A stretch of DNA of 64,000 nt, from positions 32,001 to 96,000 of IMG/VR virus record IMGVR_UViG_3300042558_005069, one strand, 5' to 3'. The position numbers and the translations under genes are program-made. The notes beneath the pieces were generated by a model. The model ran no database searches and was not told the origin of the DNA. It saw nothing but the letters and a program-made list of their open reading frames with translations. The stretch is from a virus. Every line of letters begins with the position of its first letter. The first letter of the stretch is position 1. Below, one piece after another: positions 2,574 through 61,372 of the stretch.

Positions 2574-2592
2574 TGTCGTCCTTTATTTGTTT

Positions 2593-16330: not shown

Positions 16331-16645
16331 CTAAAGCCTTTGGCCACACTTTGTGCATATTTTTGCCCAAGGGTAAAAACGCGTCATATTCATAGGGTGA
16401 TCACATTCTAAAATACGCTTAGCCTCTACGTTTAGCGCATTTCTTATCCACGCTGACAGCGATATCTGCTCATGTGTTGACGCTTCTTTCCATCTATTGC
16501 GTTCAGCATCCGTTGTTCGTATTAGGACCTGCTTGTCGGAAGGATTGCCATTCTCGTTTGGGTTCCCTCGGGCAATCGTCGGTTCAAGGTTTTCAGCAAC
16601 CTTGTTCATGGCTGCAACTATGTTGTTTTCTTCGTCGCTACTCAT
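16331..16645 (-). CDS. ribbon-helix-helix-like DNA-binding protein with a C-terminal Cys/His zinc motif
   Basis: KQVLIRTTDAERNRWKEAS..ISLSAWIRNAL; CDHP..CTKCG; start placed at MSSDEE (16645). Confidence 0.6.
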   Translation of the reverse strand: MSSDEENNIVAAMNKVAENLEPTIARGNPNENGNPSDKQVLIRTTDAERNRWKEASTHEQISLSAWIRNALNVEAKRILECDHPMNMTRFYPWAKICTKCGQRL

Positions 16646-27021: not shown

Positions 27022-28407
27022 TTACGCAGTAGGAGCGGCGTCGAATTCAACCTTGACGAATGCTTCTGGACGCTTTACCGCAAGGGCGAGGCGTTGTTCG
27101 GCGAGAATAACAATCGCGTTGCGGATGAAGAAATCGCTGTGCTGCTCACTGATGCGGATAGATGCCTGCTCGCGGTCATAAAGCTGAGCACCGGTGCCAA
27201 ACGCGCCGACCAAAGCCATACCTTCCTGCATTGCTGGAGTATCAACAAGTGGCATTCTCCATACTCTTGGCTCGCCACCCATCGCAACAGAAACTGCGAT
27301 GAGGTACTGGCCATTGACGTCTTTTGTCAATTCGATGTCTTCCCAATCATTTGGGTGAACAACGATACCGCTTGGCTCGTAGTAAGCCAAGAAGGAGAGT
27401 GTAGCCGCACGGCGAATTGCGTCAGCTTTGGTGTCACCAGCCGTAACGTTTGCAACTCCAGCAACACCGTCAGACCAAGCGTATTCCTGGACTCCTGGGG
27501 TGTTCATCACGCCGAGCAAGTTTTCGCCCAGTCCGTCACCGTTGAGGATTTGATTGTCCTCAAGGAGGCGCAAGCCGTACATAAGCTCGTTGTCGATGAT
27601 TGAGCGAAGCTGTGGTTCATCGGCAAGAACGTTGCGGTGTGCTGCTTCCCAGTGAGCGAGTGTTCTAATTGGGGCCTGTTCACCAACGAACTGGAATGAA
27701 GATTGTGGCTTCAACCCAAATACTCCGCCAACTCTTTCAGCGACAGTAGACGCTGCGTTGTTGGTTGAGTAGGTGCTTGCAGTTACGCCTGGAGCAGAAA
27801 TCGTCGTAAAACCGATTTGACGGAAGTACTCAATAACTGCTGCTGTTGTAGTCCGAACAGGGAACAAGTCACGAACGCGCTTTGTGCGTGTTGGTGGTGT
27901 TACCATCGGATCGCGCTGAACCGTACCGAAAGAGCCGAGACGGCTGTCAGCTACGGTTGTTGAAGGCAAGCCAGAGAAGACATCCTTCACATTGTAGCCA
28001 CTCAAAGAGATGTTTGCCATCCATGGAGCTGCCATGTTTGCGCCGTTACGGCCACCAGCAAGTGCCTTGAACTCTACTGAGTCAAGGAACATCTGACCGA
28101 TGCTCTTGATCTCGCTTGAGGTCAATTGGCTGATTTCTGATGCTGCAGCTGAATAGCTTGATGCGACCGACTCTGATGCTGGCTGCGAAGACCAGCTGTC
28201 AACGTCACCCATTGTCTGCAAGTCAGAAAGGAGTGATTTAATTTCCTTAATGTCACGCATGTTCTTGTCGAATGCTGTTTTTTGTTCTGAAGAAACAACA
28301 ACTGTTCCTTCTTCTACCTTGAATGAGTCAGCAATGGCCTTATTGTCAGCCATTTTAACTCTGAGAGCTGATTGCAGCTCATCAATTCTTCCATTGTCTT
28401 GCGACAT
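27022..28407 (-). CDS. major capsid protein, HK97 family, with an N-terminal delta domain
   Basis: VRDLFPV, IRTLAHW, QILNGDG..NLLGV, IVVHPNDW, FIRNAIVILAEQRLALAVKRPEAFV; AGGAG SD. Confidence 0.95.
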   Translation of the reverse strand: MSQDNGRIDELQSALRVKMADNKAIADSFKVEEGTVVVSSEQKTAFDKNMRDIKEIKSLLSDLQTMGDVDSWSSQPASESVASSYSAAASEISQLTSSEIKSIGQMFLDSVEFKALAGGRNGANMAAPWMANISLSGYNVKDVFSGLPSTTVADSRLGSFGTVQRDPMVTPPTRTKRVRDLFPVRTTTAAVIEYFRQIGFTTISAPGVTASTYSTNNAASTVAERVGGVFGLKPQSSFQFVGEQAPIRTLAHWEAAHRNVLADEPQLRSIIDNELMYGLRLLEDNQILNGDGLGENLLGVMNTPGVQEYAWSDGVAGVANVTAGDTKADAIRRAATLSFLAYYEPSGIVVHPNDWEDIELTKDVNGQYLIAVSVAMGGEPRVWRMPLVDTPAMQEGMALVGAFGTGAQLYDREQASIRISEQHSDFFIRNAIVILAEQRLALAVKRPEAFVKVEFDAAPTA

Positions 28408-40789: not shown

Positions 40790-42499
<1,710 letters not shown>

Positions 42500-42634
42500 A
42501 TGGCTCCTATTGTGTGGGTGAATGACCATCGGGACATTGACCTATAAACTGTGTGGCAAACTATAACGTATCACGTTCCGAGCCTTAAAATTAGCAACAT
42601 TCAATGGCTTTAAGAAAAATAGTTTTTATCTTCC

Positions 42635-45600
42635 TTATTTGTTGATTATTTCTGGCGAGGTTTTTCTTTTTCCCTTACGTCCAGGAGCAGAAGGCTTGTA
42701 CACCGTCGTGCCTTCCCTTAAGCGGGTCTGGGCATTCCTCAACTGCTCACCGCTGAAGATGTCTTCTATTGTGTGGTTTGTGCCAAATATTTTATTAAAT
42801 TGATCAACGAATTCCTGCAATTCGGACCTCGAGAATCTAGGCACGTCGCCTAATCTTTTTGAAAAAGTCTTACCTCTTCTTTTTGCGGCAGCCTGCAGTA
42901 CGGTCCCCATTTCCCTGCTATTGATAATAAATTGCCTACTTTGAACACTGTTAAGGCTTGAACCAGGGAATGACCTATCAATGAATTCTGTTAAAGCTTC
43001 ATACACGTTGGCCTTGGATGCCAAAAGCTCCTCATCCAGCTTTTGGCCTGCCTTATTTACGCCGAATACATCGCGAGCATTCGGGATGACCCCAGTTCTG
43101 ATCATTTCCGCAATATAGGCAATGGGTACTCCATCTTTTTTCCACTCTTTCACGGCGTCTTCACCAAGTCCAACGTCTACCTTCTTCACGTCGTCTGGAT
43201 CAAGTTCGGCGTCTACCTTCTTCACGTCGTCTGGATCAAGTTCGGCGTCTAAATCCTCTCCAAAAGCTTTTTCCAGGATTGGCTTAAGTTGCTTCGGCCA
43301 TTCATCTTCCGATATGCCGAGATGGTCAAGAAGTTGCGATAAAGTAAAATCTGCTCGCTGAACACGGCTACCCTTGCCTCTGCGGGCGTTGCTGGCAATA
43401 TCAGGGGGAAGGGCCTCGAAAGCCTCGCCCATAGTTCCTTGATAGCTTAATTCTACCTCTGCCTCTGAGTCGTCCCTTGCGGCAGGAGAATTCTCGAACT
43501 TGCCTACGGCGTTGAATCGTCTTGCTCCGTCCTCCAGGTCATCAAACTCTTCCGCGGTAAGCATCTTCCCTGACCCATAGATCTCCTCCTCGGCGATCCC
43601 CCCTATAAAGTCTCCCCTGTCGTGCCAGTATGGATAAGCGTCTGCTCCAAATGTTTCGATAATAAAACGATCTCTCATGTTTGCACGGCCGGTATTTTCG
43701 ACGAGTCTTTCTATGGCGTTCATGCCTTCTTCTTCGGCTTCCATATCGGATACTGGAGAAAACAATCTCCACCCGCTAAATTCTGGCTGACTACCAATTT
43801 CGGCCAATAGATACCTTACGGTGTCGTGCGTGAGCGCAGCCGTATCGCCCTTAAGCTTTGCTTCTTCCGTAACGTTAAGTCCAAGGAGTTTTGCTAGTTT
43901 CGGGATGGTAAGCGGCTCTGACTGGGTCCAATATACCCCCACTTTGGGAGTAGCCACGTCCACGACCTCCTCCCCTTGTAGCTCCGAAGTTATAGTTCCT
44001 CTGGATATATCTTCTTGCCTGCGCCATCCAGTAGGGATTCTGACGGTGTCAAGTAGTTTGCTTATCGAAAGCATCCATGAATCACCGGAAGGATCATTGT
44101 TTGCAAAATTGTCGGTTGTTTTACCGATCTTAACGACTCTTGATCCGTCGCTTTGCTTTCTTGCTCGCATCCTTTCTCCGACTTTTATGATGTTGTCATT
44201 AATTTTTTTTGCACGATCATTCTTCGATGTTGAATTTTGATCTGCTGGCATATCTAAGGCAATGCCTGTCTGATTGAAGGCGTTCCAGAATTGCATCGCA
44301 TAACGAGTTACTCTGTCTCTATCTTGAGGGTCAATGCGCACATCTGTACGTATTCCTGCGAGCTCTAGGGCAGATAGGCGCTGCTGCATTCCTGCCCTAT
44401 TCTCAAATCTGCTCACGCGTCTTCCGAACCTGCCCTCTGGAGTTCCAGTTATTTTTGAAGCCCTACTCGAACCTTTTGCTACATCAGGAGCTTCCTCGGA
44501 TGTTTCCGAAGGTTCCGCACCTGAAGAGAATCCAGCATCAAAATCTTCATCAAAATCATCATCATCATCATCTTCAGCCTCGATCGTGCTTATTTCGTCA
44601 AGCTCGTCAAGCACATTGTCAGCGTCGTCCACAGTCAGGTCCTCGTCTGAAATCCCCCGCCCGTCATCTTCTCCCTCTGGAAACTGAGCGGCTGGGTCAA
44701 ACATTGGACCATCGATAATTTCGCGTGCTCGTTCTCTCATTATGCGGACGGAAGCATCACGTAACGTTTCTTCCGAAACATTTGCGTCGGCAAATTCATC
44801 CATCACTTCTTTTCTTCGTTTGATGAACCCTTGTGTTGCTACGTCAGGTACGCCTATTCGTCTCATTTCAGCAATTAATTCATCATCCGGAAGACTCAGG
44901 ACGCTTCTTCTTGAAGCGTTAAAATCGGTTAGGTCTTTCCCTTCCGCGGCATACTCTTCTATTTCTCTATACACTTTTGGCAATTTGTCGAGTGATAATT
45001 CACTCTCTCTGTCAAAATCTTCTGGCAAAATTTTACGTTCGACACCGTCGCGAATGAGGTCTGCAATTTCTTTACGCTTTTGACCTTCGGCAAAGTGCGC
45101 CATCCACATTCTCGGTGATAGTGATATCGCTCTCATAGCCCTAGTTACGACCACGTGTTGAAGATTCATTTCTTCTATCCAGCCCGGAGGTCCCGAACCG
45201 TTGCGCTTAGCTGCTTCAAGAATGTCTACGTTTAAGTCATCGTCAGGATCTGTAAAGTCATCAAGCACCAGAACAAATTTTCCTTCTTTGCCTTTTGCTG
45301 TTGTTCCAGTTTGTATGACGACATCACCACCGCGTTTTTTTGCACTTTTGCGAACAGCATCACCAATGAGGTTTATTATTCTTGTAGCTTCTTCTGGGTC
45401 ATCTTTTGCATCTATGACGAATCCGTCATAATCTCTGCCCTTTGCGCGGCTCACCTTCGGGCCAACTCCGAAGCTCAGTCTCGTCCTCGACTGAAGCCCT
45501 AGGCGATCAAGTATCCCTAAAGTGTCGGACAGGTATGCTCCATCGAAGTTCCTTCCGGAAGTATCCGGGTACTTGTTCGGATCTGCATATACCGCCTGAG

Positions 45601-48600
45601 GTCTTCCAGTATCGACTCCGTCACCAGAAAGAATTAATTTTCCAGTCCATTTAAATTGTTTAGTTGCATAAAAAGTTTCACGTGGATCTGTGCCCGTGTT
45701 TGATCTGCCAGCTGTAGCTGTCATAACAAGTTTATTTCGCATTCTTCGAAAAGCGATTTTTTCTAGTTCTTCTACCGTTTCAGCTTCTCCAAACTCAGCA
45801 ATTGTCTCAAACTTTGGGGTTCCGTCAGCCTTTGTCCACTTCGATGTGACTCTTAATCTTTCTCCAGGCTGATCTGGTATTTTTTCTACAATAACCTGAA
45901 AGTCATCTGGGTTAATAGCATCTTGGCCGTCTTTGAAATCATATTCAAGTTCAAAATAAACAGCATCCTTGGTTCCTTTTGCATCAGGCTGTACAACAAA
46001 TATTTTTGTTGCGGCGTTAACATCTGATGATTTTGAACTCCTATCTGTACTTGACAGAATCTGACTAAGAGTTTTTTCTTCAAACTCCATCAAGCCTAGA
46101 TCAAGGCTGTCCCTCATTGGCCTGATGCTAGAAGAACGGTGCGACTTTGTCCCATCCGCAAGCACTACTCCGCCACCCCTTAGGGAAACAAGCATCTGGC
46201 TTGCAAACATTGTCTGAGATCCGGCTGGTTGTCCGTCTACTGGTTGAAACAACAATTGATACAATGAATTTCCTGGAGATTTTGATTTTAATTTAAATCT
46301 TTCTCTTATTGTTGCCATATCCCAATAATCTCCGATTAAAGGTGATTTTTCTGGTTTTCTTCCAGGGTTTAAACCGGCTGCAGTTTTTTCAGCCCAGTCA
46401 ATATGTTGAAAGAAATCAACAGCTTCTTGCCATGCTGACTGAGTTAACATTATTTGAGGTTTGTCTTTTGAACTTAAAGGCTTAACGAGTTGATCAAATT
46501 CATTTTGAGTTAGATTCTGGGAATCACGCAGTGTTTCTGGATTGTCGATTCTTCCGCCAAGGAAAACTGCACTTTCAAGGAATAAGTCTTTCCATGTTTG
46601 AACTGCTAAATGGACAGTTTGAACTTTTCCACGCGACAGAGCCATGTCTGGCAAATTACCAAAATAAACTTCTTCTTTTTCATCGACAACTCGAGTGCTT
46701 AAGGCTTTTGCAATTTTAGTTTTTGCGTCGTCTATTTCTTTTCTTAATTCAGTAAGCGCTTTTGCTCTTGCTTTTGGCGTCATTCCTGCAAAGTTTTCAC
46801 CGTTTAAATATGAATCAAAACTAACTCCATAAAGTCGCTTAACAGTATCGTTAACGCTGTTTGCTGCACCAAAATCGCCAGCTTTAACAAATGAAAAAAT
46901 ATTTTCTATGTGTCGTTTAGCTGCCGTGTCAGCAGCCCCTTCAACGTATTTCCACTGCTCTGCAGTTAACGGTTTGCCTTCATCCAAGAGATCCTGAAGT
47001 AACTTATTTTCCCGACCAAGAATGAGCGTCGCCATGTACCCGAGAAGACTACCAAAGCGAAATGACTGTGTTAATTTCGGCACAAAATCGGGAGAAATTG
47101 ACTGCATTATATTCTTTGAACCGTTGAAGCCAAGTATCTGCTGTCTGTCGTCGCCGACTGCTATTGTAGAAACTCTTTCTTTATTTCTGTTTAGTAATTC
47201 TTCCCAAACTTCATTAAGGTCTTGTGCTTCGTCGATCGCAAAAAGAGATATAGGTTTTTCTTTTGATGCGTATTGTTTTTTCAATTTGCCACGACTTCCA
47301 TCGATAGAGACCACAACCCATGGTTCTCCTTCCGATTTGTCCCATTGACGTATAGACGAAATTCTTCCAGTTTGCGGATCTATTACTTCATCATAAAATT
47401 TATTATTTTTTCCATAATAGACAACATCGCCCCTGCGTATATTAAATTGTGCAGGTATTTTTTCATTCGCTAGGCTGTCTTTGCTTCCGTGCCCAAGAGC
47501 ACCAGGATTTGTTGATAGATCCGGATCGGCGAGCAGTAGCAGTTTTGGCAACTGCCCCTGAGTTGGGAGCAACATGCCGTTTCCATCAACCAATTCATCT
47601 GCGGCTTTTTTGACATATGAAAGCCATTCATCCATCAGTTTATCTGGAACGTTTTGAAGTTGTTCATCGATTGCTTGTGTTTTTTTCTGTGCCTTTTTAG
47701 TTGAGAATCTGCCGGTCATCGTGTCAGTTTGCTCGCGGAAGCTTAGATTAAAAACATCTTTTGTGACTTCCGGGTTTGAAGACAATGACCACCTTCTGAA
47801 TGCCATTGCAAGGTATTCGCCAAAAAAGTCTACTTCGATCCAATTATTCCCGTCAGGCATGGTAAAAGGGACATCATACACTTCAATATTTTTAGTTTTT
47901 GCCTTTTTGCCTTTTCCTCTTGTAACGCTTATTGTTCTTCTGGGAAGACTCACACCAGCTTTTTCGAGAAATGCAAGCATGTCCTTGCCAGTTTCCACGG
48001 TTGAATAGCCAAGATCTTTGTAGTTAGGCCTGTATCCAATGAATTGCATACTCTCTGAGTCATGCTGTCTTCTTGCTTGGTCATAACCATCCACAGTTAT
48101 GGGTTGGTTTCTATTTTTAAACGATCTTCTTCTTGCATAGTCAGTTAGTAGTTCTATTTTTCTTCTCATCGACGGCGCATTTAATATTCTATTTTCCGGG
48201 CTGTCATTTTCTGCGATTCCTTGACGCAAGGACCAGTAAGCAAGCTGAGTAGTCGTTCCTATTCCTGTGTTCCCAGGAAATGATTCAGCTGCTTCTAGGC
48301 GGTTTTCTTTACCGAAAACCGTGTAGTAGATTGTCGGTTTATTATCTTCCGTTACTCCACGAGATTCTCCCAATTCCCTGATTGCTTGGATTAGGGTTTT
48401 TTCATCTGTGCTCTCTGGCCAAAAAACATCAACGTCTTCAAAACCTTTTGCTGGGTACTTAGCTGCAAGATAATTTGCTTTTTTTAGTAGCTGTTGCTTT
48501 CTAGTAACAGCATCTCCGGCAAATCTTTGTAGAATGTCATCAACGCTAAATTCAGCATTGATTGCTGCTGCGAGCATCTTCATTGTGGTTGTTTTACCGG

Positions 48601-51600
48601 AACCCGCTGCCGCATCAACTCCGATAACTAATTTTTCTTGACCGTATACAGCTGCTAATCCAAGATCAATAATGTCTCGCTGTTCATCCGTAGGAGGAAC
48701 AAGAAGATTAAGAAGAGACTTAACGTCTGTTGAAGCAGGAGTTCTTCTTACGGGTCTTTTTTTCGATCCACTACGAGCATTTATTGGATTTCCGCCACTG
48801 GCGAATCTTCCGTCGAGCGTAAGCGCCCTGCCCTGAGAGTCGGACACAGAGGCAATATCGCCATACATACGCTCTTCTTTTGACTGAGAGCCATATTTTC
48901 TTCTGTCTTTTGAAGAAGAAAGGTCTGAAGTGTCAGTAACGTCGTCCTCTTTGTCGAGGAAGGGAATTCCACTGGAGAAACGTTTGTCGATGTTGTCCGC
49001 TCTATCAATAAGGTCAATGTCTCCCATTGGGCCGCTGATTGGTCTGCTTGTTGGTACTTTTGGTGAATCCTCATACCCTTCTAACATTGAAAGCGGAACG
49101 GTGTCTCTTGATGACTTTTTAGCTTTTCTTTCGTTATCCTCCATGCCCGATAGACGCCGCAATGTTTTGGATCTATTTAGCATCCAGTCAACGGCTTGCT
49201 GCGCTTGACCCATGGCAGTCTTGATAGCGTTTGGATCGTTTCTAATCTTTTCTGCCCAGAATTTTAGATATCCTATGTGATCTTCTCTAACCATGGGCGA
49301 AATGCCAAGCATTCCCAGCAAAAAGGAAGACCCAACTTCTGCTATGAGCTCCTCAAACGCGTACGCCGGTGACCCATATTTTGCAACTTGAGGTCTATTG
49401 TTCCGGCTTGGATGCCCAGTCCAGTGCGTCATTTCGTGCAATAGGGTTGAGTAATAACTTTCCGCATCATTAAACGTTTCGAACGGCGGCATATTTATGA
49501 AGTCGCCGTTTGGAGAGAAAAATGGCCCGCCAACATTTGACTCTCTTAATCTTGGATTTAATTCTTTAACTATCGCTTCTGCATTTTTAACACGAGCTTT
49601 TGGACTCAGGTTTTCCAGGTCGATTTCTGGCTTATACATTTCAGGAGGCAGACCATCAATATCCGCTACGTTATAGACTTCTTCAACTTTGTACTGACGT
49701 GGATCTGATCCAAGTATCGGAACTAAGATATTTACAGGACGAGCATTCGGCGATGCTTTCCCTTTAAATTTTTTCCATTGACTTATCCCTGCCCATTTAT
49801 TGGTTTCGTAACCACGTGATACCGCTATGGAGTTTAACAACATACGGTTGGTCCCCTGGTAGGACCAGCTTTTTTGACCTTGGTTCTTCTTTGTTGGGTT
49901 TCGGGGGTTGTGCTCCCCTTCTCTCCATGGCATATTCCATTTGAATTTTTCTGGATTATTTACAGCTTCTTGAAGCATTTCAAGAATTTGTTTGCCAATT
50001 TGAGCGTAGTATTCATCGATTACGGCTCTGCCCTCAGCTGTTGCCGTATCTACTATGTCGCCAGGCTTTAGAGAATTATTACCGTCTCCTCCTGAAGAAA
50101 ACTTTCCAGTAGAAGAAACTTGGTTAAAAAAGCCATCGAACTTAAACCGCTCATCTATGGTTTTGTCGCTTTCGCGTTTTCTTAGAAAATCCAAATAGTT
50201 TTTGTTTTTTGCCTGAGCCTGCTTCCTGGCCGCAGACATAGATCTACTTATCTCTTTTTTTGGTTTTGCTGTTACTATTTCCCGCGAACCACTGCCTAGC
50301 GGCCGAGCTTCTGTTCCCGCTACCGAGGAGCGCTCTGGGGCTTCAATTTTACCGGGGACTTTTGGATTATTGATTGAGCCTGGACCGTCTGGTGTTGGGT
50401 CGGGCTGCTCAAGAGAAGTACCACGAAGGAATATACCTTCGCCCACAATCCCATTGAGGTTGCGGTCAATAGCTGTCCTTGGATCAAAATTCTCAGCATT
50501 TGGGGTCGAGAAAAATCTACCTGCAGATCTTGCTCCCCCGATGCCGGGTTTATTATTGGCTCTACTTCCTATGGCTCTTCCGAGCCTGTAGGCGGATACC
50601 TTAAATTCTAGATCGTCACTGATTAAACTTTTTTTTTTTAAATTATCTAAAGCTGTATCGATAGCGTCAATCAACTCATAAGAAACACCATTTGTTATTA
50701 CTATTCCTTCTGGGTCAACATACGTATCTACCTTATGGTAGTCAAATACTGGATCTAACGCTTGCTTTACGTGAAAAGCATAATCTGTGGATACTGGCAG
50801 GAAATACGGCTTTTCTGGTTCAAAAGAATCTTCAAACGTACCGAACTCGGCTAGATGTTTGAATTTCCGCTTTTTTCTTCTTTTTCTTTTTACTATTCCA
50901 CGCAGTCCGGCAATAAACAGCTCTCCTGGATACTTGAACTCAAAGTCAGCAATATATTCGTTTTCGTTATCCTCTGTCTCGAATTCGTATTCTTTTTTGG
51001 CCATAAAGTCGCCTTTTACAACACCTGGTGGGATTATGGCAAAGCGACACTTCCCTTCAGGCTCTATTGCCATGTCGATAATCTGGCAGCTGTTGTCCTT
51101 GTTATAAAAAACGCAGTTTGAGCATTTAACCCCAATTCCAGCAACTGGATTTTGTGCAGCTGGTTTGTAGCCTGCCCAAATTCCATCAGAATCTTCGTTT
51201 ATTTTTCCGTGACGCTTTACGATCTTTAGTAGTGCGTCTCTGAGGTCTGACTCTTCTTGATCCAGGTCATCGGCACTAATTGGCTTGCGGCTCTGCCCTT
51301 CGTACTGCACTGCTGGTAGGGGTACCACCGTCATTCCGTTTGGCCCTGGCTTTATGGCAATGGGAATCGATGGCATCTGGCTCGGACGAACAACCCTCTG
51401 AGGATCTACCGGAGGCAACCCGCCAACAGGCATAACTGGAGGTGAAGTTTGAGGCTTAGCAACGATCACTATTCTTTCTGGAGCGCCAAACATAAAGCGG
51501 CCATTGCCACCTCTGGAAAAATGACATTTATACTTTTCCATTGAATTTGACTGGTCTGTTCTGTTGAAGGAGACCATTCCGTTGTCTTCGTCAACTTCCG

Positions 51601-52258
51601 TCACAGAGACTTGATTTCCAAGAACTTTTTGCAATTCTATTTCTAGCTCATCGCTCATGGATGGACGTTGCTGAACCATAGGGCCGGAAGGGCTCTCGAC
51701 GTCGTAAGTTCCTGGCATCCCTGCTTTTACCGAAATAGTGCCTGTTAGTTGATTTGCTCCGTGGAGAACTGGGCTAACTTCGTAGAGTTCAAGCTCGTAG
51801 ATTACGTTTGCTTGAGATTTTTGGTCAAATTGAGCTCTAAGAGTTTTGTAGCCTATTGACCACTCTTGGTCTTCGCCAAAAAAAGCAACATTAGCGAATG
51901 CTTCTTTGCCCTTTTCTGAATTTAAATTAAACTGGACACGGGCAAAAAGTCCTCCTATGCCAGCCATTTTCATTTTCATTGGCAGTCTTGGATCGGTGGA
52001 CGGAACTTCGTATATCTCTAGAACTTTGCCAATCGGGTCATTCCAGTTATGACCCCACACCACACGAGGCTTGCGCCGCATCAGGCTTTTGGTAAATGCT
52101 CCGCTCTGAACGATATCGCCAACAGAATCTTTGTTCCCTATTCCGGAAACGAAGCACTCGACCATGCCTTGAGCCTCGTCAAGATTCAGTACGCCGGATT
52201 TTCCGTTGACAACGGACGACATTGAACCAGCTTTATATTCAAAAGAATTTCCGGACAT
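42635..52258 (-). CDS. HK97-type prohead protease fused to a HiPIP-like 4-Cys domain, ArdC-like antirestriction module, UvrD-like SF1 helicase and an unknown C-terminal region (3207 aa)
   Basis: GNKDSVGDIV..GAF..WGHNW..PIG..EWSIGY..LYEVSPVLHGAN; WNMPW..YQGTN..YYSTLLHEMTHWTGHPSR..YAFEELIAE; AAAGSGKTT, DEAQD, VGDDRQQI, LTQSFRFG, VVTRA. Confidence 0.9.
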   Translation of the reverse strand: MSGNSFEYKAGSMSSVVNGKSGVLNLDEAQGMVECFVSGIGNKDSVGDIVQSGAFTKSLMRRKPRVVWGHNWNDPIGKVLEIYEVPSTDPRLPMKMKMAGIGGLFARVQFNLNSEKGKEAFANVAFFGEDQEWSIGYKTLRAQFDQKSQANVIYELELYEVSPVLHGANQLTGTISVKAGMPGTYDVESPSGPMVQQRPSMSDELEIELQKVLGNQVSVTEVDEDNGMVSFNRTDQSNSMEKYKCHFSRGGNGRFMFGAPERIVIVAKPQTSPPVMPVGGLPPVDPQRVVRPSQMPSIPIAIKPGPNGMTVVPLPAVQYEGQSRKPISADDLDQEESDLRDALLKIVKRHGKINEDSDGIWAGYKPAAQNPVAGIGVKCSNCVFYNKDNSCQIIDMAIEPEGKCRFAIIPPGVVKGDFMAKKEYEFETEDNENEYIADFEFKYPGELFIAGLRGIVKRKRRKKRKFKHLAEFGTFEDSFEPEKPYFLPVSTDYAFHVKQALDPVFDYHKVDTYVDPEGIVITNGVSYELIDAIDTALDNLKKKSLISDDLEFKVSAYRLGRAIGSRANNKPGIGGARSAGRFFSTPNAENFDPRTAIDRNLNGIVGEGIFLRGTSLEQPDPTPDGPGSINNPKVPGKIEAPERSSVAGTEARPLGSGSREIVTAKPKKEISRSMSAARKQAQAKNKNYLDFLRKRESDKTIDERFKFDGFFNQVSSTGKFSSGGDGNNSLKPGDIVDTATAEGRAVIDEYYAQIGKQILEMLQEAVNNPEKFKWNMPWREGEHNPRNPTKKNQGQKSWSYQGTNRMLLNSIAVSRGYETNKWAGISQWKKFKGKASPNARPVNILVPILGSDPRQYKVEEVYNVADIDGLPPEMYKPEIDLENLSPKARVKNAEAIVKELNPRLRESNVGGPFFSPNGDFINMPPFETFNDAESYYSTLLHEMTHWTGHPSRNNRPQVAKYGSPAYAFEELIAEVGSSFLLGMLGISPMVREDHIGYLKFWAEKIRNDPNAIKTAMGQAQQAVDWMLNRSKTLRRLSGMEDNERKAKKSSRDTVPLSMLEGYEDSPKVPTSRPISGPMGDIDLIDRADNIDKRFSSGIPFLDKEDDVTDTSDLSSSKDRRKYGSQSKEERMYGDIASVSDSQGRALTLDGRFASGGNPINARSGSKKRPVRRTPASTDVKSLLNLLVPPTDEQRDIIDLGLAAVYGQEKLVIGVDAAAGSGKTTTMKMLAAAINAEFSVDDILQRFAGDAVTRKQQLLKKANYLAAKYPAKGFEDVDVFWPESTDEKTLIQAIRELGESRGVTEDNKPTIYYTVFGKENRLEAAESFPGNTGIGTTTQLAYWSLRQGIAENDSPENRILNAPSMRRKIELLTDYARRRSFKNRNQPITVDGYDQARRQHDSESMQFIGYRPNYKDLGYSTVETGKDMLAFLEKAGVSLPRRTISVTRGKGKKAKTKNIEVYDVPFTMPDGNNWIEVDFFGEYLAMAFRRWSLSSNPEVTKDVFNLSFREQTDTMTGRFSTKKAQKKTQAIDEQLQNVPDKLMDEWLSYVKKAADELVDGNGMLLPTQGQLPKLLLLADPDLSTNPGALGHGSKDSLANEKIPAQFNIRRGDVVYYGKNNKFYDEVIDPQTGRISSIRQWDKSEGEPWVVVSIDGSRGKLKKQYASKEKPISLFAIDEAQDLNEVWEELLNRNKERVSTIAVGDDRQQILGFNGSKNIMQSISPDFVPKLTQSFRFGSLLGYMATLILGRENKLLQDLLDEGKPLTAEQWKYVEGAADTAAKRHIENIFSFVKAGDFGAANSVNDTVKRLYGVSFDSYLNGENFAGMTPKARAKALTELRKEIDDAKTKIAKALSTRVVDEKEEVYFGNLPDMALSRGKVQTVHLAVQTWKDLFLESAVFLGGRIDNPETLRDSQNLTQNEFDQLVKPLSSKDKPQIMLTQSAWQEAVDFFQHIDWAEKTAAGLNPGRKPEKSPLIGDYWDMATIRERFKLKSKSPGNSLYQLLFQPVDGQPAGSQTMFASQMLVSLRGGGVVLADGTKSHRSSSIRPMRDSLDLGLMEFEEKTLSQILSSTDRSSKSSDVNAATKIFVVQPDAKGTKDAVYFELEYDFKDGQDAINPDDFQVIVEKIPDQPGERLRVTSKWTKADGTPKFETIAEFGEAETVEELEKIAFRRMRNKLVMTATAGRSNTGTDPRETFYATKQFKWTGKLILSGDGVDTGRPQAVYADPNKYPDTSGRNFDGAYLSDTLGILDRLGLQSRTRLSFGVGPKVSRAKGRDYDGFVIDAKDDPEEATRIINLIGDAVRKSAKKRGGDVVIQTGTTAKGKEGKFVLVLDDFTDPDDDLNVDILEAAKRNGSGPPGWIEEMNLQHVVVTRAMRAISLSPRMWMAHFAEGQKRKEIADLIRDGVERKILPEDFDRESELSLDKLPKVYREIEEYAAEGKDLTDFNASRRSVLSLPDDELIAEMRRIGVPDVATQGFIKRRKEVMDEFADANVSEETLRDASVRIMRERAREIIDGPMFDPAAQFPEGEDDGRGISDEDLTVDDADNVLDELDEISTIEAEDDDDDDFDEDFDAGFSSGAEPSETSEEAPDVAKGSSRASKITGTPEGRFGRRVSRFENRAGMQQRLSALELAGIRTDVRIDPQDRDRVTRYAMQFWNAFNQTGIALDMPADQNSTSKNDRAKKINDNIIKVGERMRARKQSDGSRVVKIGKTTDNFANNDPSGDSWMLSISKLLDTVRIPTGWRRQEDISRGTITSELQGEEVVDVATPKVGVYWTQSEPLTIPKLAKLLGLNVTEEAKLKGDTAALTHDTVRYLLAEIGSQPEFSGWRLFSPVSDMEAEEEGMNAIERLVENTGRANMRDRFIIETFGADAYPYWHDRGDFIGGIAEEEIYGSGKMLTAEEFDDLEDGARRFNAVGKFENSPAARDDSEAEVELSYQGTMGEAFEALPPDIASNARRGKGSRVQRADFTLSQLLDHLGISEDEWPKQLKPILEKAFGEDLDAELDPDDVKKVDAELDPDDVKKVDVGLGEDAVKEWKKDGVPIAYIAEMIRTGVIPNARDVFGVNKAGQKLDEELLASKANVYEALTEFIDRSFPGSSLNSVQSRQFIINSREMGTVLQAAAKRRGKTFSKRLGDVPRFSRSELQEFVDQFNKIFGTNHTIEDIFSGEQLRNAQTRLREGTTVYKPSAPGRKGKRKTSPEIINK
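43174..43251. repeat. perfect 36-bp in-frame tandem duplication (DAELDPDDVKKV twice)
   Basis: CGTCTACCTTCTTCACGTCGTCTGGATCAAGTTCGG twice plus CGTCTA. Confidence 0.95.
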
Positions 52259-52354: not shown

Positions 52355-54457
52355 CTATACTGTTTGAGCAAAAAGCCAGACCGATCGAGCTTCTGATTCA
52401 GCTATCTCAAACTGATCATGAGCAAGAAGGTTGGCATACATCTCTCCAATTCCTTGCCTAAACGCTCTGAGTCTTTCTTCTTCGTTTGAAAAATCAAAAG
52501 ACTTAATCATCAGATTGTATATTTCTGAAGATATATCGCTGTTAAGAGATTTTATTTTCATCAGGTGAGACTCGATAGTTTTTACAACATCAATTGTCGG
52601 AATGGACTTAACTTTAATCCCATTTTCTGATTTAAATTCTTTTCGTGAATCGAAAGAATCATTAATGATCGATGTGAGCACGGGCTTTATGTCGTCTTCC
52701 ATCTGTCTATTCCAAACATCAACAGCCAGTACCTGCTCAATATCGAGAGTCCCAGCAGAAAGGGCTTTTTTGGCTTTTGCTCCAGAAGATTTCTCCATGA
52801 CAACTCTTTGCTGACGCTCTAGCAGTCTTTCGATACTGCGAGCTAGTATCTCCGACCATCTCTCGATGGCTGTTTGACATTTTTCATCGTATGTCTCGCT
52901 GAGCGATTTTGTCTCGATGGAGGCTTGACGTTCCCCCGCTGTTGCCATTTGCTGCTGCGGCATCCCCTGCGTGATTGCTTCCGATGGGATTGTAGTCTGA
53001 GCCAAATCGCCAGCTGGAGGAGTTGCCTGCCCGGCCATGGATTCGGCGATTGCCCCTTGCATAGTGTTTGGATCGAGCGGAGGAGGTGCTCCTTCCATCC
53101 CTGGCTGTCCTGGCATACCTGGGGGCATCCCTGGCATACCTGGGGGCATACCTGGCATACCTGGGGGCTGTCCTGGCATACCTTGCTGCTCCCCCATCAT
53201 CGCCTGATTTTCTTCCATTTTTTTCTTTGTGTTGGCAATTGGAATAAGATTTGGATTCATAAGCAAAGAGTCAGCGAGGTCTGCTTCTACTTCTTTTCTT
53301 GAAGAGCCGGTCCGGTATTCGTTTGCACTGATTAATCCAGTCTGAAATTCCTGGAGCAAATACCTGTCTCGCTCCTGCTTGTAGAGCATTAGGATTGGAA
53401 CTTCGGAGGTGTCGAAGTCTAAATAGTACTTATCGTCTAACTCGTCTAGCCCCCGAGCGAGTGGCTCTAAATGTGGAAGCATTGTTTCCATCCAGAAAAC
53501 ACGGATTTCTTCTGCGGCATTGCTAAAAGTACGACCGGACGCATTTCCGATAACAGACTCAGGAACTCCGAAAGCTGAAAGAATTTCTTCTTTTGTTATT
53601 TGTCGCATTTGTATGTATGCGGCGTCTCTGGGACTTGCAGATGTGTCGACAAAATCAACACCATCGTCTGATGAGATTACGGTTGTGTGACCGGCTTTAG
53701 ACAAGTTTCCCCTAAATCTATTACGTAGCTCTTCTTTGTCATCGTCATCTATTTCTCCTCTTACTACGAGAAGACCGCCAGGTCTTCCATCGTTAAGTAA
53801 ATAGTTCCTATTGTAAAGTTTTGCTAAGTTTTCTATTTCTATTGCCACCCCAGAAGCTTCAAGTGGAGTCAGTGAAAGATAAGGGTCAAGGGGGTGAGGT
53901 CTACGAATCCAGCAGACGTCGTCTGGCTTCATAATAACCTTGTCTCCGGTTGGCATCATGACTTCATAGCCTGAAACAAAAGTTTTTGGGTGAGGAATCG
54001 GAGATGTGGATTGTGGCGGAAGAAGGTTTAGGGCGACAATTCCTCCATCGCGGCCACGAATTTTCTCTATAAACGCTCCTCGCGTTCCGAGAAGAAGCTG
54101 AGCTGAAAGCCTGTATCTGAAAATAAAAGAGTTTTCGCCTATGTTTGATTTTGTGTTCAGAAGCTCAAGGAGGGTTGATCTTTTGGCTTCTCTGCCAACA
54201 ACCAGTTCACCCATATTGGAGTTATCTTTACGCAAAACTATAGGTAGTCGCGCTTGGTTTCCTGCGATCGCATCAATGCATCGATTAACCCAGGTTATCT
54301 TAGACATTCCCTCGCGGTATGCGCGCTCTATGTCCCACGAGTCCCTGTATGGCTTTCCTGCAAATGAGGGATTCATCGAAACGGGAGCGCCGTATACACC
54401 TAACTCTTTAGAGCTAGTGCTTTTAATTGATTTGTTTTGTGGTGTATTCCAGCCCAT
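52355..54457 (-). CDS. portal protein, HK97 family, with a long C-terminal extension
   Basis: WVNRCIDAIA, YLSLTPLEA, NDGRPGGLL, EILSAFGVPESVIG, SANEYR. Confidence 0.93.
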   Translation of the reverse strand: MGWNTPQNKSIKSTSSKELGVYGAPVSMNPSFAGKPYRDSWDIERAYREGMSKITWVNRCIDAIAGNQARLPIVLRKDNSNMGELVVGREAKRSTLLELLNTKSNIGENSFIFRYRLSAQLLLGTRGAFIEKIRGRDGGIVALNLLPPQSTSPIPHPKTFVSGYEVMMPTGDKVIMKPDDVCWIRRPHPLDPYLSLTPLEASGVAIEIENLAKLYNRNYLLNDGRPGGLLVVRGEIDDDDKEELRNRFRGNLSKAGHTTVISSDDGVDFVDTSASPRDAAYIQMRQITKEEILSAFGVPESVIGNASGRTFSNAAEEIRVFWMETMLPHLEPLARGLDELDDKYYLDFDTSEVPILMLYKQERDRYLLQEFQTGLISANEYRTGSSRKEVEADLADSLLMNPNLIPIANTKKKMEENQAMMGEQQGMPGQPPGMPGMPPGMPGMPPGMPGQPGMEGAPPPLDPNTMQGAIAESMAGQATPPAGDLAQTTIPSEAITQGMPQQQMATAGERQASIETKSLSETYDEKCQTAIERWSEILARSIERLLERQQRVVMEKSSGAKAKKALSAGTLDIEQVLAVDVWNRQMEDDIKPVLTSIINDSFDSRKEFKSENGIKVKSIPTIDVVKTIESHLMKIKSLNSDISSEIYNLMIKSFDFSNEEERLRAFRQGIGEMYANLLAHDQFEIAESEARSVWLFAQTV
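53093..53180 (-). repeat. PPGM/PGM/PGQ coding tandem repeats in the portal
   Basis: Repeated CCTGGCATA and CCTGGGGG units; GMPGQPPGMPGMPPGMPGMPPGMPGQPGM. Confidence 0.85.
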
Positions 54458-54738: not shown

Positions 54739-56052
54739 ATGGATAATAAACCCAATTGGGCGGAGGTCCTCGAATACCTTCAACCTAAGGAACCTCCATT
54801 TTGCCCCGAGGAACCCTCTATTAACCAAAAAGTATTTCTTCGCACGAACGCTCTAGAAGCGTTGTTCGGGGGAGCGGCTGGCGGTGGAAAAAGTTCAGCA
54901 TTGCTAATGGCAGCATTGCAGTACGTTGACGTACCTGGATATTCTGCACTTCTTTGCCGTCGTACATTTGCCGACTTATCGCTCCCTGGAGCATTGATGG
55001 ACCGTTTTAAGTCATGGATGAGCAACTATGACGATATCCATTGGAATAACAACACTTTTATTGCTACGTTTCCATCGGGAGCAAGAATATCCTTCGGTTA
55101 CCTCAATAATGTCAACGATTATCTTAGATATAAGGGTTCGGAATTTCAGTTCATAGGGATGGACGAAGTTACGGAAATACGTGAATCTGACTACAGGTAT
55201 TTGTTTTCTCGCCTCCGTCGCCCAGCTAACGGTCCAGTTTCGCAAGTCCCACTAAGAATGCGATGTGCGTCAAACCCTGCTCCAAACTGGGTGCGTCAAA
55301 GATTTATAGTTGAAGGAAAAGAAACAAATAGAATTTTTGTACCCTCTACGCTGAAGGACAACCCAGGAATTGACGCCGACTCGTACAGGCAGTCATTGTC
55401 CGCACTCGACCCCGTTGAGCGGCGAAGACTGGAAGAAGGAGACTGGTGGTCTACGACTCTTGGCACAATGTTTGACAGAACATCATTTGAGATAATAGAC
55501 CCAATTGACATCCCGATAATAACCAGCGCAGCAAGAGTGGTTCGTTTTTGGGACCTTGCAGCTACGGAACCAAGTGCCTCAAACCCTGACCCAGACTGGA
55601 CTGTCGGCACTTTAATGCTTTTCAATGGCGGCGTAGCTTATGTTTTGGACGTAAGGAGAGCAAGAGTTCGGGGAGAAAAAGTAGAACAATTAATTTCTCA
55701 GACATCAATAGAAGATGGGCATGGGGTAGCGATACGCATGGAACAAGAACCAGGCTCCTCCGGAAAAGCATTGCTGGATCAATACGCTAGATACGTAGTT
55801 CCTGGCTACGATTTCGGCGCTGTACGCGCTACGGGGGACAAAGTGACCCGCGCTAGACCATTCGCTGCAGCGGTAGCCAATGGAAACGTTCGGTTAGTTC
55901 GAGGTCCGTGGATAACTGGATGGCTTGATGAATTTGCCTCTTTCCCGGAAGCCTGCGACCACGACGACCAAGTCGACTCGGCTGTTGGAGCATTTACTCA
56001 TTTAACGGGCCTTGGGTTGCCACAGAGAAAACGAGCATCTATACTCATCTAG
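54739..56052 (+). CDS. terL: terminase large subunit
   Basis: Walker A GGAAGGGKS, Walker B FIGMDE, ASNP, DNP, nuclease WDLA..DWTVG..HDDQVD. Confidence 0.95.
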   Translation: MDNKPNWAEVLEYLQPKEPPFCPEEPSINQKVFLRTNALEALFGGAAGGGKSSALLMAALQYVDVPGYSALLCRRTFADLSLPGALMDRFKSWMSNYDDIHWNNNTFIATFPSGARISFGYLNNVNDYLRYKGSEFQFIGMDEVTEIRESDYRYLFSRLRRPANGPVSQVPLRMRCASNPAPNWVRQRFIVEGKETNRIFVPSTLKDNPGIDADSYRQSLSALDPVERRRLEEGDWWSTTLGTMFDRTSFEIIDPIDIPIITSAARVVRFWDLAATEPSASNPDPDWTVGTLMLFNGGVAYVLDVRRARVRGEKVEQLISQTSIEDGHGVAIRMEQEPGSSGKALLDQYARYVVPGYDFGAVRATGDKVTRARPFAAAVANGNVRLVRGPWITGWLDEFASFPEACDHDDQVDSAVGAFTHLTGLGLPQRKRASILI

Positions 56053-60241: not shown

Positions 60242-60528
60242 AATTTATAAAAAGAAATAAATCACTATTCCCAGAAAAACTAACAACGCATTGGGATTCC
60301 TTGCCTCATAAAAGATATTCAAGCATGAACGACGATGATCTTTGTCCTTGGAACCTGAGCCCAAAAACAATTGACGAGTTTGTGTTGGCATGTGATCAAC
60401 GAAATGAGTGGCACAAGAATAATGCTGGAGATCCTCGTTACTCCTGGTGGTCATGTCTATTGACCCACGATCTAATGGAAGACATCGCAAGAACGTTAAA
60501 GGAAATTAAAGATGAACAACATTCATAA
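60238..60528 (+). CDS. hypothetical protein
   Basis: ATGA overlap with the upstream gene. Confidence 0.6.
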   Translation: MKFIKRNKSLFPEKLTTHWDSLPHKRYSSMNDDDLCPWNLSPKTIDEFVLACDQRNEWHKNNAGDPRYSWWSCLLTHDLMEDIARTLKEIKDEQHS

Positions 60529-61372
60529 TTCTCTACAGCACTTGGCGGTTGACATATTGGACCTAATTCCACTTGAGGACAATCCCAGAAAGGGAAATGT
60601 TGACGCGATAGCATCTTCTTATCTTGAGTTTGGGCAGATTAAGCCTATTGTAATTCGACCAAACGATGACGGAACTGCAACAATCATTGCCGGAAACCAC
60701 CAAGTCCAAGCAGCAAAGAAATTGGGATGGGATAAAATTGCTGCGGTTCCTTACGAAGTGGATAATCTTCGGGCGATCGCATTCGCAATTGCTGACAACA
60801 GGACGATGGAACTTGGTTACACAGAGCCAGATCTGCTTAATAACGTTATTTTGGAGATTGGAGATTACTATCCTGAGCTGATTGAGGGCTTAGGATGGGA
60901 TGAATTTGAATTTGCCGAACTAGAACAAAAATCAATTCGAGAAGAAAATCAAGTGATTAGTTCAGGAAACTCCTACACTTCGCCTTCACTACAAACTCCC
61001 GCCAGCGATTTCGGAAACGGATTTGGAAACGGATTTGGAAGCCGCGAAGAAGAAGAAGAGCCACGTGCCCTACGAGAGTCTCCACGAATAGACATGAATG
61101 CAATTTCGATGACAAAAGACAGAGACGGCAAAACTGAATTAAACGTGAGGTCTGGAGTTAATCAAGACGATGCAGTCGTGAGGGGATCAACAACCGTTTC
61201 TCCTTCATCCGCACCTCAGGCAGTTGTCCAGTACACAATAGTTTTTGATACTCATCAACAGCAGGCAAGGTGGTATGAATTTATAAAATGGCTTCGATCT
61301 GACCCCGCAGTTGCTGGAACCACAACAGCAGAGCGAATAATAGACTTCATCGATCAGCACATCGAGCTATGA
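60512..61372 (+). CDS. ParB/Srx-like N-terminal domain protein
   Basis: LIPLEDNPRKG, FGQIKPIVI, IIAGNH, IADNRT. Confidence 0.9.
   Translation: MNNIHNSLQHLAVDILDLIPLEDNPRKGNVDAIASSYLEFGQIKPIVIRPNDDGTATIIAGNHQVQAAKKLGWDKIAAVPYEVDNLRAIAFAIADNRTMELGYTEPDLLNNVILEIGDYYPELIEGLGWDEFEFAELEQKSIREENQVISSGNSYTSPSLQTPASDFGNGFGNGFGSREEEEEPRALRESPRIDMNAISMTKDRDGKTELNVRSGVNQDDAVVRGSTTVSPSSAPQAVVQYTIVFDTHQQQARWYEFIKWLRSDPAVAGTTTAERIIDFIDQHIEL

What the first reader, a model, noticed from the sequence alone, without database searches (positions are those of the whole stretch)
42635..52258. Prohead protease fused to an ArdC antirestriction module and an SF1 helicase
The first roughly 180 aa are a complete HK97 prohead protease (His in WGHNW, Ser in WSIGY, EVSPV). 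FSSG/FASG motifs then bracket an ArdC-like module (50089-48980) and a UvrD-like helicase of about 1420 aa (48793-44531). The protease has to enter the procapsid, so the fusion gives a direct route for loading antirestriction and helicase cargo into the head. This is the best in-window support for the polyproteins being virion cargo.
Basis: partly seen in the sequence, partly recalled or inferred. Interest (0 to 1): 0.8.

Follow-up and report, generated by a model that had tools for sequence, protein, structure and literature searches.

The report
Head protease leading a cargo polyprotein
An uncultured lake-water phage encodes its only detectable capsid-maturation protease as the front end of a 3207-residue protein that also carries an anti-restriction enzyme and a DNA helicase. 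The gene looks built to load these enzymes into the virus head, cut them apart and deliver them with the DNA, but no experiment has shown this.

Summary
Window 42635-52258 (minus strand) is one 3207-aa ORF containing an HK97-type S78 prohead protease (aa 31-174, His70/Ser134), a complete ArdC (aa 724-1093, HExxH intact), a UvrD-like SF1 helicase (aa 1156-2576) and an unknown 627-aa tail. F-S/A-S-G peptides separate the modules.

It is not an assembly artefact. At least 280 protein clusters share the architecture, all 80 related viral loci have the portal gene directly upstream, and contigs from four independent lake runs cover the ORF without any difference.

It is the only prohead protease found in this record and in three complete relatives.

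Three further results:
- An A11 run, the longest homopolymer in the window, ends the conserved 545-aa protease module. It is kept as pure A10/A11 in 20 of 22 distinct relatives (two carry A9 and are split), with stops in both other frames. This matches the Thermus dnaX slippage signature and predicts a short protease-only product as well.
- The junction motif is about 26-fold enriched family-wide and changes with lineage.
- The only other structural-block protein (of 12 checked) matching a loosened motif is the major capsid protein, after its N-terminal helical region.

Packaging, cleavage and slippage are all inferred. The scan reported the same family earlier on other genomes.

The parts
42635..52258 (-). 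3207-aa ORF: protease-led polyprotein
51737..52168 (-). S78 (HK97-type) prohead protease domain, aa 31-174. Catalytic His70 is at 52049-52051 and Ser134 at 51857-51859; invariant His166 is at 51761-51763.
   Evidence: Pfam 42 bits. Residues invariant in 62 sequences. Aligned to HK97 gp4. AlphaFold pLDDT above 90, and the top Foldseek hits are T4 gp21 and herpesvirus proteases.
50624..52258 (-). Conserved N-terminal module, aa 1-545 (protease plus accessory domains at about aa 200-265 and 485-544). This is the predicted short product.
   Evidence: Homology blocks in relatives end at aa 537-542. The last modelled helix, 527-544, ends at the A-tract.
50629..50639 (-). A11 homopolymer on the coding strand (aa 540-544, LKKKS): candidate programmed slippage site
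   Evidence: Longest homopolymer in the window. Losing one A gives a stop after 1 codon; gaining one A gives a stop after 3 codons. Of 22 distinct relatives, 20 keep A10/A11 and two have A9; all share the codon phase, and stops follow within 5 codons in both other frames.
50090..50101 (-). Junction motif 1, FSSG (aa 720-723)
48980..50089 (-). Complete ArdC module (aa 724-1093): ArdC-N at 49739-50014, zincin MPTase at 49214-49585, HEMTH at 49424-49438
   Evidence: Pfam. Solved ArdC structures 6sna and 6i89 match at E 1e-31 over residues 27-293 of 305.
48968..48979 (-). Junction motif 2, FSSG (aa 1094-1097). This site is variable among relatives.
48794..48805 (-). Junction motif 3, FASG (aa 1152-1155). 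Its position is conserved.
44531..48793 (-). UvrD-like SF1 helicase with large inserts (aa 1156-2576). GSGKT is at 48590-48604, DEAQD at 47219-47233, GDDRQ at 47141-47155, and VVTRAMRA (motif VI-like) at 45128-45151.
   Evidence: Pfam UvrD-helicase and AAA_19. FBH1 helicase 9xzj at E 4e-4. Motif positions.
44519..44530 (-). Junction motif 4, FSSG (aa 2577-2580). Its position is conserved.
42638..44518 (-). C-terminal module of unknown function (aa 2581-3207)
   Evidence: No Pfam or Atlas match. 35-81% identical in nine relatives.
52355..54457 (-). Portal protein, directly upstream
   Evidence: PF04860 E 2e-50. The same neighbour is present in all 80 related loci.
40790..42529 (-). 579-aa protein of unknown function, directly downstream
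   Evidence: A homolog (46-80% identical, mostly 65-80%) lies downstream in every locus whose polyprotein ORF is complete, except split L033 and distant L083 (35%). No family match.
27022..28407 (-). HK97-fold major capsid protein. It has an N-terminal helical region and L-T-S-S at aa 95-98 (28114-28125).
   Evidence: PF05065. hhalign to HK97 gp5 at probability 100. L95, S97 and E99 are invariant or nearly so in 121 homologs, mostly as QLSSRE.

Best explanation
The gene is the phage's capsid-maturation protease gene, extended in frame into a cargo polyprotein.

Shown by sequence: an active-looking S78 protease at the N-terminus, then a 365-aa accessory region, a complete ArdC, a UvrD-like helicase and an unknown module. 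Short F/L-S-S-G peptides separate the modules.

Inferred mechanism:
1. The N-terminal 545-aa module enters the procapsid as HK97-type proteases do, and in the full-length form it brings the downstream modules with it.
2. Slippage on the A11 run, by RNA polymerase or by the ribosome, also yields a 544-547-aa protease-only product. The short-to-long ratio would then set the cargo dose, as in Thermus dnaX tau/gamma or retroviral Gag/Gag-Pol.
3. Inside the procapsid the protease cuts the capsid protein's N-terminal region and the junction peptides. This would free ArdC (about 41 kDa), the helicase (about 157 kDa) and the C-terminal module (about 69 kDa).
4. These enzymes leave with the DNA at infection, where ArdC would counter restriction. 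The helicase's role at entry is not known.
For: The fusion is real and widespread.

It is the sole prohead protease. There is one PF04586 match and no ClpP, S77 or S49 in the record. In three complete 150-160 kb relatives with terminal repeats, the only S78 match heads a 2984-, 4905- or 3567-aa frame and there is no ClpP match.

The protease domain is 41-43% identical to the capsid maturation proteases of Gordonia myophages, whose capsid protein is also the closest cultured match. It is the best-conserved part of the protein, at 83-98% identity against 24-77% for the helicase.

Junction motif:
- 1366 copies of [FL][SA]SG in 252 family proteins, against 52 expected.
- Sites at about aa 720/730, 1152 and 2577 are conserved in position across ten homologs.
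- Homologs with no HExxH anywhere still carry 5-11 motifs, while all but seven of the family proteins of 720 aa or less lack it.
- Distant protease-led giants use GFAS(R), GMRS, GLRS or GLAS instead.
- Among 12 other structural-block proteins (4738 aa), only the capsid protein matches a loosened motif. The match is at aa 95, after the N-terminal helical region, where most homologs read QLSSRE.

Slip site:
- A11 is the longest homopolymer in the window, and stops follow in both other frames.
- Of 22 distinct relatives, 20 keep A10/A11 in the same codon phase, although only 42% of other Lys codons are AAA.
- The two contigs with A9 are split into a 543- or 551-aa ORF plus an overlapping long ORF.
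- Thermus dnaX uses the same design: a single long ORF with nearby stops in both other frames (PMC5009743).

Precedents: T4 and SPN3US head cargo are processed by the prohead protease (PMC7411985). The cultured Streptomyces phage Gilgamesh gp52 is an N-terminal S78 protease fused to a NUDIX domain.
Against: - There are no proteomic, RNA or biochemical data for this phage or its close relatives. No listed sequencing run was RNA.
- The capsid protein's site reads LTSS in this phage, not FSSG. HK97's own cleavage position extrapolates to about aa 148 rather than 95, so the real capsid cut site is uncertain.
- All three giant proteins contain HExxH motifs, so a zincin acting in trans is not excluded.
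- A lineage with GFASR motifs has no A-tract, so slippage is not universal in the family.
- The 355-kDa fusion might be cut free of the protease before assembly.
Confidence: 0.6

Rival explanations
1. The junction peptides are cut by a zincin metallopeptidase rather than by the S78 protease. This could be the ArdC MPTase domain or the HExxH domains of the other giant proteins. Iyer et al. proposed this for polyvalent proteins in general. A host protease is also possible.
For: P0001 has an intact HEMTH. The 4564-aa and 2524-aa giants also carry HExxH motifs. Iyer et al. 2017 propose MPTase autoprocessing (PMC5512222).
Against: Eighteen homologs with no HExxH still carry 5-11 motifs each. The motif type changes along with the protease-led lineage. 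A related peptide sits in the capsid protein, which is a classic prohead-protease substrate.
Confidence: 0.18
2. The polyprotein is only an expression device. The protease frees ArdC and the helicase in the producing cell, where they act late in infection, and they are not packaged.
For: No data on virion content. The helicase could serve replication or recombination. Nothing in the sequence proves encapsidation.
Against: ArdC-type anti-restriction is needed at DNA entry, before any phage gene is expressed; this rests on established knowledge of plasmid ArdC, which I did not test here. The gene lies in the head-morphogenesis block between portal and capsid. Cargo processed by the prohead protease is established in T4 and SPN3US.
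Confidence: 0.12
3. The A11 run is only a Lys-Lys-Lys codon run with no recoding role, and only the full-length protein is made.
For: AAA makes up 71% of Lys codons in this ORF. The four laid metagenome contigs all show A11 with no indel.
Against: Across 22 distinct relatives AAA is only 42% of Lys codons, yet the tract is pure A throughout (A10/A11 in 20, A9 in two). It keeps the same phase despite diverged flanks, and stops follow within 5 codons in both other frames. Homology blocks end exactly at the tract.
Confidence: 0.15
4. The fusion is an assembly or frame artefact.
For: Two related contigs (L022, L033) are split at the tract.
Against: 280 clusters, 80 loci and 20 runs over 7 years hold the fusion, and contigs from four runs bridge it without any difference.
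Confidence: 0.01

Closest known systems
Polyvalent proteins of phages and conjugative elements (Iyer, Burroughs, Anand, de Souza, Aravind 2017, PMC5512222)
   Same: Many effector domains sit in one polypeptide. ArdC-N and the MPTase zincin are the hub domains. The protein is encoded next to the portal/terminase head genes and is predicted to be packaged and delivered with the DNA.
   Different: [quoted passage not shown] Here it is N-terminal in every listed match of the representative search and is the phage's only prohead protease. A recurring junction tetrapeptide and a slip site are not described in the passages I read.
T4 internal proteins and Alt, and SPN3US ejection proteins, processed by the prohead protease
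   Same: Head cargo is loaded during prohead assembly, trimmed by the prohead protease and ejected into the host (PMC7411985).
   Different: In those phages each cargo protein has its own short targeting propeptide and is cut by an S77-type protease at a Glu motif. Here the cargo is covalently joined to an S78 protease and the motif is F/L-S-S-G.
Thermus thermophilus dnaX tau/gamma transcriptional slippage; retroviral Gag/Gag-Pol
   Same: One gene gives a short and a long product that share the N-terminus. A homopolymer A run is followed by nearby stops in both other frames (PMC5009743). The long form carries enzymes into an assembling particle.
   Different: The in-frame product here is the long one, as in dnaX and unlike Gag-Pol. 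No RNA or protein evidence exists yet.
ArdC of IncW plasmids (PDB 6sna, 6i89)
   Same: Full-length similarity at E 1e-31, with both the ssDNA-binding N-domain and the HExxH metalloprotease domain.
   Different: Here it is an internal module of a phage polyprotein rather than a free protein transferred by conjugation.
Streptomyces phage Gilgamesh gp52 (cultured; annotated 'hydrolase')
   Same: An N-terminal S78 protease is fused to an enzyme domain (NUDIX), directly upstream of the capsid gene.
   Different: It is only 641 aa with a single cargo domain. The phage's 4624-aa giant protein (gp48) is a separate gene.

Membership tests
Peptidase S78 (HK97-type prohead protease) | Match to PF04586 above the curated cut-off | tested here: met
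   42 bits against a cut-off of 21, aa 31-174; phrog_80 at E 7e-26
Peptidase S78 (HK97-type prohead protease) | Catalytic His and Ser equivalent to HK97 gp4 His65 and Ser114 | tested here: met
   His70 and Ser134 are invariant in 62 sequences. Ser134 aligns with gp4 Ser114, and His70 lies two columns from His65 in the same motif.
Peptidase S78 (HK97-type prohead protease) | Assemblin/gp21-like fold | tested here: met
   The top Foldseek hits are T4 gp21 (5jbl, probability 0.99, TM 0.50 on the target) followed by EBV, HSV and HCMV proteases. E-values are weak (0.03) because the query has several domains.
Peptidase S78 (HK97-type prohead protease) | Cleaves the capsid protein inside the procapsid | not testable with these tools
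   Indirect only: it is the sole protease gene and lies between portal and capsid.
ArdC anti-restriction protein | ArdC-N ssDNA-binding domain plus a C-terminal HExxH zincin, over the full length | tested here: met
   PF08401 at 35.6 bits, PF18818 at 117 bits, HEMTH at aa 941-945. PDB 6sna matches at E 1e-31 over residues 27-293 of 305.
ArdC anti-restriction protein | Protects incoming DNA from restriction in the recipient cell | not testable with these tools
   Needs an assay.
SF1 UvrD-like helicase | Walker A, DExQD, motif III and motif VI in order | tested here: met
   GSGKT at aa 1219, DEAQD at 1676, GDDRQ at 1702, VVTRAMRA at 2370. PF00580 at 31 bits against a cut-off of 23, a partial match.
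SF1 UvrD-like helicase | Recognisable C-terminal (2A) domain, PF13361 | tested here: inconclusive
   Not detected in this protein. It is listed for many homologs.
Polyvalent proteins (Iyer et al. 2017) | Two or more effector domains in one chain, including the hub domains MPTase and ArdC-N, in a portal/terminase phage | tested here: met
Polyvalent proteins (Iyer et al. 2017) | Assemblin-like peptidase, where present, at the C-terminus | tested here: not met
   It is N-terminal here and in every listed match of the representative search. The paper's statement was read.
Programmed transcriptional slippage (Thermus dnaX type) | A/T homopolymer of 9 or more, in a single long ORF, with nearby stops in both other frames | tested here: met
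   A11, with stops 1 and 3 codons after it. The design is as described in PMC5009743.
Programmed transcriptional slippage (Thermus dnaX type) | The tract is conserved at nucleotide level among diverged homologs | tested here: met
   Pure A-run in all 22 distinct sequences (A10/A11 in 20, A9 in two), against 42% AAA background use.
Programmed transcriptional slippage (Thermus dnaX type) | Heterogeneous mRNA and two protein products | not testable with these tools
   No RNA run was listed.
T4-type capsid-targeting-sequence cargo | Short N-terminal targeting propeptide removed at an L/I-x-E site by an S77 protease | tested here: not met
   No S77 protease in the record. The junction motif is F/L-S-S-G. 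This system works in a similar way but is not a member.

The most novel reading that the evidence does not exclude
A large clade of freshwater phages with genomes of roughly 150-160 kb may use a Gag/Gag-Pol-like scheme. The sole capsid protease would double as the capsid-targeting head of an exchangeable anti-defence polyprotein. A slippery A-run would set the ratio of bare protease to cargo-laden protease. One protease specificity, evolving together with its junction peptide, would mature both the capsid and the cargo.
Probability: 0.45. Interest if true: 0.85.

Novelty: new variant of a known kind. Interest (0 to 1): 0.75.

Why it matters
How phages get large enzymes into the capsid, and in what dose, is known for only a few model phages. 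This gene suggests a simple general answer: attach the cargo to the protease that must enter the procapsid anyway, mark the joints with the protease's own cut site, and set the dose by slippage.

If true, it gives:
- a way to predict virion-delivered anti-defence proteins in uncultured phages;
- a natural design for loading foreign proteins into HK97-type capsids;
- a directly testable case of recoding in a structural gene of a DNA phage.

The clade is abundant in lakes. More than 2300 capsid-protein clusters match at E below 1e-40. The cargo part evolves fast, which is what would be expected of counter-defence proteins.

Tried and rejected
I used IMG/VR loci for context instead.
- No RNA holder was listed among the sequencing runs, so slippage could not be checked in RNA. 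All four laid runs were contigs and show A11 only.
- A single-sequence PDB search with the protease found nothing. The fold search did.
- The C-terminal module (aa 2581-3207), aa 181-722 and the 579-aa neighbour gave no Pfam, PHROG or Atlas lead.
- BLAST among the three giant proteins and their neighbours found no shared targeting segment.
- The AlphaFold model of the capsid protein was poor (pLDDT 47), so the boundary of its N-terminal region rests on helix prediction and homology only.
- A co-variation test on capsid proteins was suggestive but not decisive. LSSG-lineage phages read QLSSRE at the site, while GFASR-lineage phages read VPTRQ or IPTQQ.
- Two other capsid sites, VFSGL at about aa 144 and GSFGT at about aa 160, lie nearer the position equivalent to the HK97 cleavage point and cannot be excluded.
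- ChisanaKitsune proteins between portal and capsid show no motif enrichment.
- Duda, Oh and Hendrix 2013, on targeting of the HK97 protease into the capsid, is not held. I used it only as background knowledge.
- Literature searches found no description of an N-terminal prohead protease leading a polyvalent protein, or of a slip site in such a gene.
Full report
**The object.** Window 42635-52258 on the minus strand is a single 3207-codon ORF with an AAGGTG-type ribosome-binding site upstream. The window is part of a 104-kb IMG/VR virus record estimated at 65% complete. The sequence recurs in lake-water metagenomes.

On the same strand the gene order is:
- portal (52355-54457);
- this ORF;
- a conserved 579-aa protein;
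- a 2524-aa protein;
- five smaller genes;
- an HK97-fold major capsid protein at 27022-28407.

The large terminase is transcribed divergently at 54739-56052.

**Domains.**
- Pfam finds Peptidase_S78 at aa 31-174, ArdcN at 749-840, MPTase-PolyVal at 892-1015 and UvrD/AAA_19 at 1657-1716. PHROGs agree.
- His70, Ser134 and His166 are invariant in a 62-sequence alignment. Ser134 aligns with HK97 gp4 Ser114, and His70 lies two alignment columns from gp4 His65 in the same motif.
- An AlphaFold model of aa 1-545 has pLDDT above 90 for the protease. Its best structural matches are T4 gp21 and the herpesvirus proteases.
- The ArdC module matches the solved ArdC proteins 6sna and 6i89 at E 1e-31 over almost their full length, and it keeps the HEMTH motif.
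- The helicase has Walker A, DEAQD, GDDRQ and a motif VI-like VVTRAMRA in the right order, separated by large inserts.
- The last 627 aa have no recognisable family.

**Not an artefact, and not rare.**
- A word-indexed search restricted to proteins of 1763-5613 aa found 280 clusters matching aa 1-720. Nearly all carry S78 plus ArdcN/MPTase and/or UvrD domains, and some sit on contigs up to 170 kb.
- An exhaustive profile search found 3805 relatives of the N-terminal part. Of the 131 new representatives among the listed matches, 66 exceed 1000 aa and 27 exceed 2000 aa. The protease is at the N-terminus in every listed match.
- In all 80 IMG/VR loci fetched, the portal gene lies directly upstream. 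A homolog of the 579-aa gene (46-80% identical) lies downstream in every locus whose polyprotein ORF is complete, except split L033 and distant L083.
- Twenty lake metagenome runs from 2018 to 2024 hold 94-100% of the ORF's sampled words. Contigs from four of them cover it with no difference and bridge the protease/ArdC junction.

**Is it the working head protease?**
- It is the only PF04586 match in the record, and no ClpP, S77 or S49 protease is present.
- In three complete relatives (150-160 kb, terminal repeats, 100% CheckV), the only S78 match is again at the head of a 2984-, 4905- or 3567-aa frame, and there is no ClpP match.
- The closest cultured matches of both the protease domain (41-43% identity) and the capsid protein (about 46%) are Gordonia myophages such as GMA6 and ChisanaKitsune. 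There the protease is a separate 501-aa gene next to the capsid gene.
- The protease domain is the most conserved part of the polyprotein (83-98% identity). The helicase is the least conserved (24-77%), as expected for a core function carrying fast-evolving cargo.

**Junction peptides.**
- With the Leu variant, the motif occurs 14, 3 and 4 times in the three giant ORFs. Among the annotated proteins of the block it occurs nowhere else; the only two other hits fall in short unannotated frames. Shuffles give 0.3-0.5 per protein.
- In 252 family proteins it occurs 1366 times against 52 expected. The consensus context is R/K-L/F-S-S-G-R/K/A.
- The sites near aa 720/730, 1152 and 2577 are conserved in position in ten homologs even where the flanking sequence is not.
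- Eighteen homologs that contain no HExxH at all still carry 5-11 motifs, whereas all but seven of the family proteins of 720 aa or less have none.
- More distant protease-led giants use other recurring peptides: GFAS(R), GMRS, GLRS and GLAS, up to 21 copies per protein. The motif therefore evolves with the lineage.

**A link to the capsid protein.**
- A loosened pattern, [FL][SAT]S[GSR], hits only the three giants and the capsid protein among the 15 structural-block proteins checked. The other 11 proteins have none.
- The single capsid hit is L95-T-S-S, just after the confidently predicted N-terminal helices (2-27 and 40-74) and at the start of the conserved body.
- In 121 capsid homologs L95 and E99 are invariant, S97 is present in 98%, and the usual reading is QLSSRE.
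- Capsid proteins from GFASR-lineage phages read VPTRQ or IPTQQ there instead.
- This fits one protease specificity serving both capsid and cargo, but it is not proof. HK97's own cleavage point extrapolates to about aa 148, where this protein reads VFSGL and ChisanaKitsune reads VFSSGL.

**A slip site.**
- At aa 540-544 the coding strand has an A11 run (window 50629-50639), the longest homopolymer in the 64-kb window. Losing one A gives a stop after one codon (a 544-aa product). Gaining one gives a stop after three codons (547 aa).
- Of the 22 distinct related sequences, 20 keep A10 or A11 and two carry A9, all in the same codon phase. Stops follow within 0-5 codons in both other frames, although the flanks have diverged and only 42% of other Lys codons are AAA.
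- Homology blocks of the N-terminal module end at aa 537-542. The last modelled helix ends at aa 544.
- The two A9 contigs are split there into a 543- or 551-aa ORF and an overlapping long ORF.
- This is the design of Thermus thermophilus dnaX: one long ORF, a homopolymer, and stops in both non-zero frames, yielding a long and a short product (PMC5009743).
- The GFASR lineage lacks the tract, so in those phages the fused form would be the only protease.

**Comparison with the literature.**
- Iyer et al. 2017 defined polyvalent proteins, with ArdC-N and MPTase as hub domains, and predicted that they are packaged. They state that the assemblin-like peptidase is rare and always C-terminal (PMC5512222).
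- T4 and SPN3US show that prohead proteases do process ejected head proteins (PMC7411985).
- I found no paper describing an N-terminal prohead protease leading such a protein, or a slip site within one.
- A simple cultured analogue exists. Streptomyces phage Gilgamesh gp52, annotated 'hydrolase', is an S78 protease fused to a NUDIX domain.

**Earlier scan notes.** Follow-up notes on other genomes reached the same reading of this family, including the run of A's and the LSSG peptide. I saw them after my own analysis. Notes on this genome had already flagged the shared motif.

**Verdict.** The cargo-loading interpretation is the best-supported reading, but packaging, cleavage and slippage are all inferences. 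I class it as a new variant of a known kind: a polyvalent protein, or protease-processed head cargo.

Noticed in passing
window 23493-24647 (+), 25048-26043 (-), 21424-23349 (+): The phage carries a cytochrome P450 (PF00067, E 2e-22), a TauD/TfdA-type dioxygenase (E 2e-55) and a class II ribonucleotide reductase just downstream of the capsid block. A P450 is unusual in a phage.
   Followed up: no
window 40790-42529 (-): The 579-aa gene right after the polyprotein is 77-80% identical in the closer relatives. That is more conserved than the portal (about 64-73%), yet it has no Pfam or PHROG family. The Atlas finds only viral hypothetical clusters.
   Followed up: partly
L004 (Streptomyces phage Gilgamesh, MN234216) 14950-16875 and 1-13638: gp52, annotated 'hydrolase', is an N-terminal S78 prohead protease fused to a NUDIX domain. 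The neighbouring 4624-aa gp48 has no Pfam match at all.
   Followed up: partly
L022 11576-11611; L033 11597-11647: Two related contigs carry A9 instead of A10/A11 at the slip site, so they are split into a protease-only ORF and an overlapping cargo ORF. This could be natural variation or a homopolymer error.
   Followed up: partly
L068, L069, L073, L076, L077, L079: A more distant lineage of protease-led giants (up to at least 3730 aa; 4905 aa in a complete genome) uses D-G-F-A-S-R-G as its recurring peptide and has no poly-A tract.
   Followed up: partly
L003 (HK97) gp5, aa 64-67 and 381-384: HK97's own capsid protein contains LASG in its delta domain and FSSG at its C-terminal end. About 0.04 matches would be expected by chance in 385 aa. 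The meaning is unknown.
   Followed up: no
window 60512-62499 (+): A ParB_N-domain protein is followed by a PAPS-reductase-domain protein. This pairing may point to a DNA-modification module.
   Followed up: no
window 28567-29310 (-): A 247-aa protein with two DUF3721 repeats lies directly upstream of the capsid gene, where a scaffold or decoration protein might be expected.
   Followed up: no
window 2593-16287 and 33210-40784 (-): The other two giant proteins carry HExxH motifs (aa 2005 and 2917; aa 596). They share no BLAST-detectable segment with each other or with the protease fusion, so how they would be targeted to the capsid is open.
   Followed up: partly
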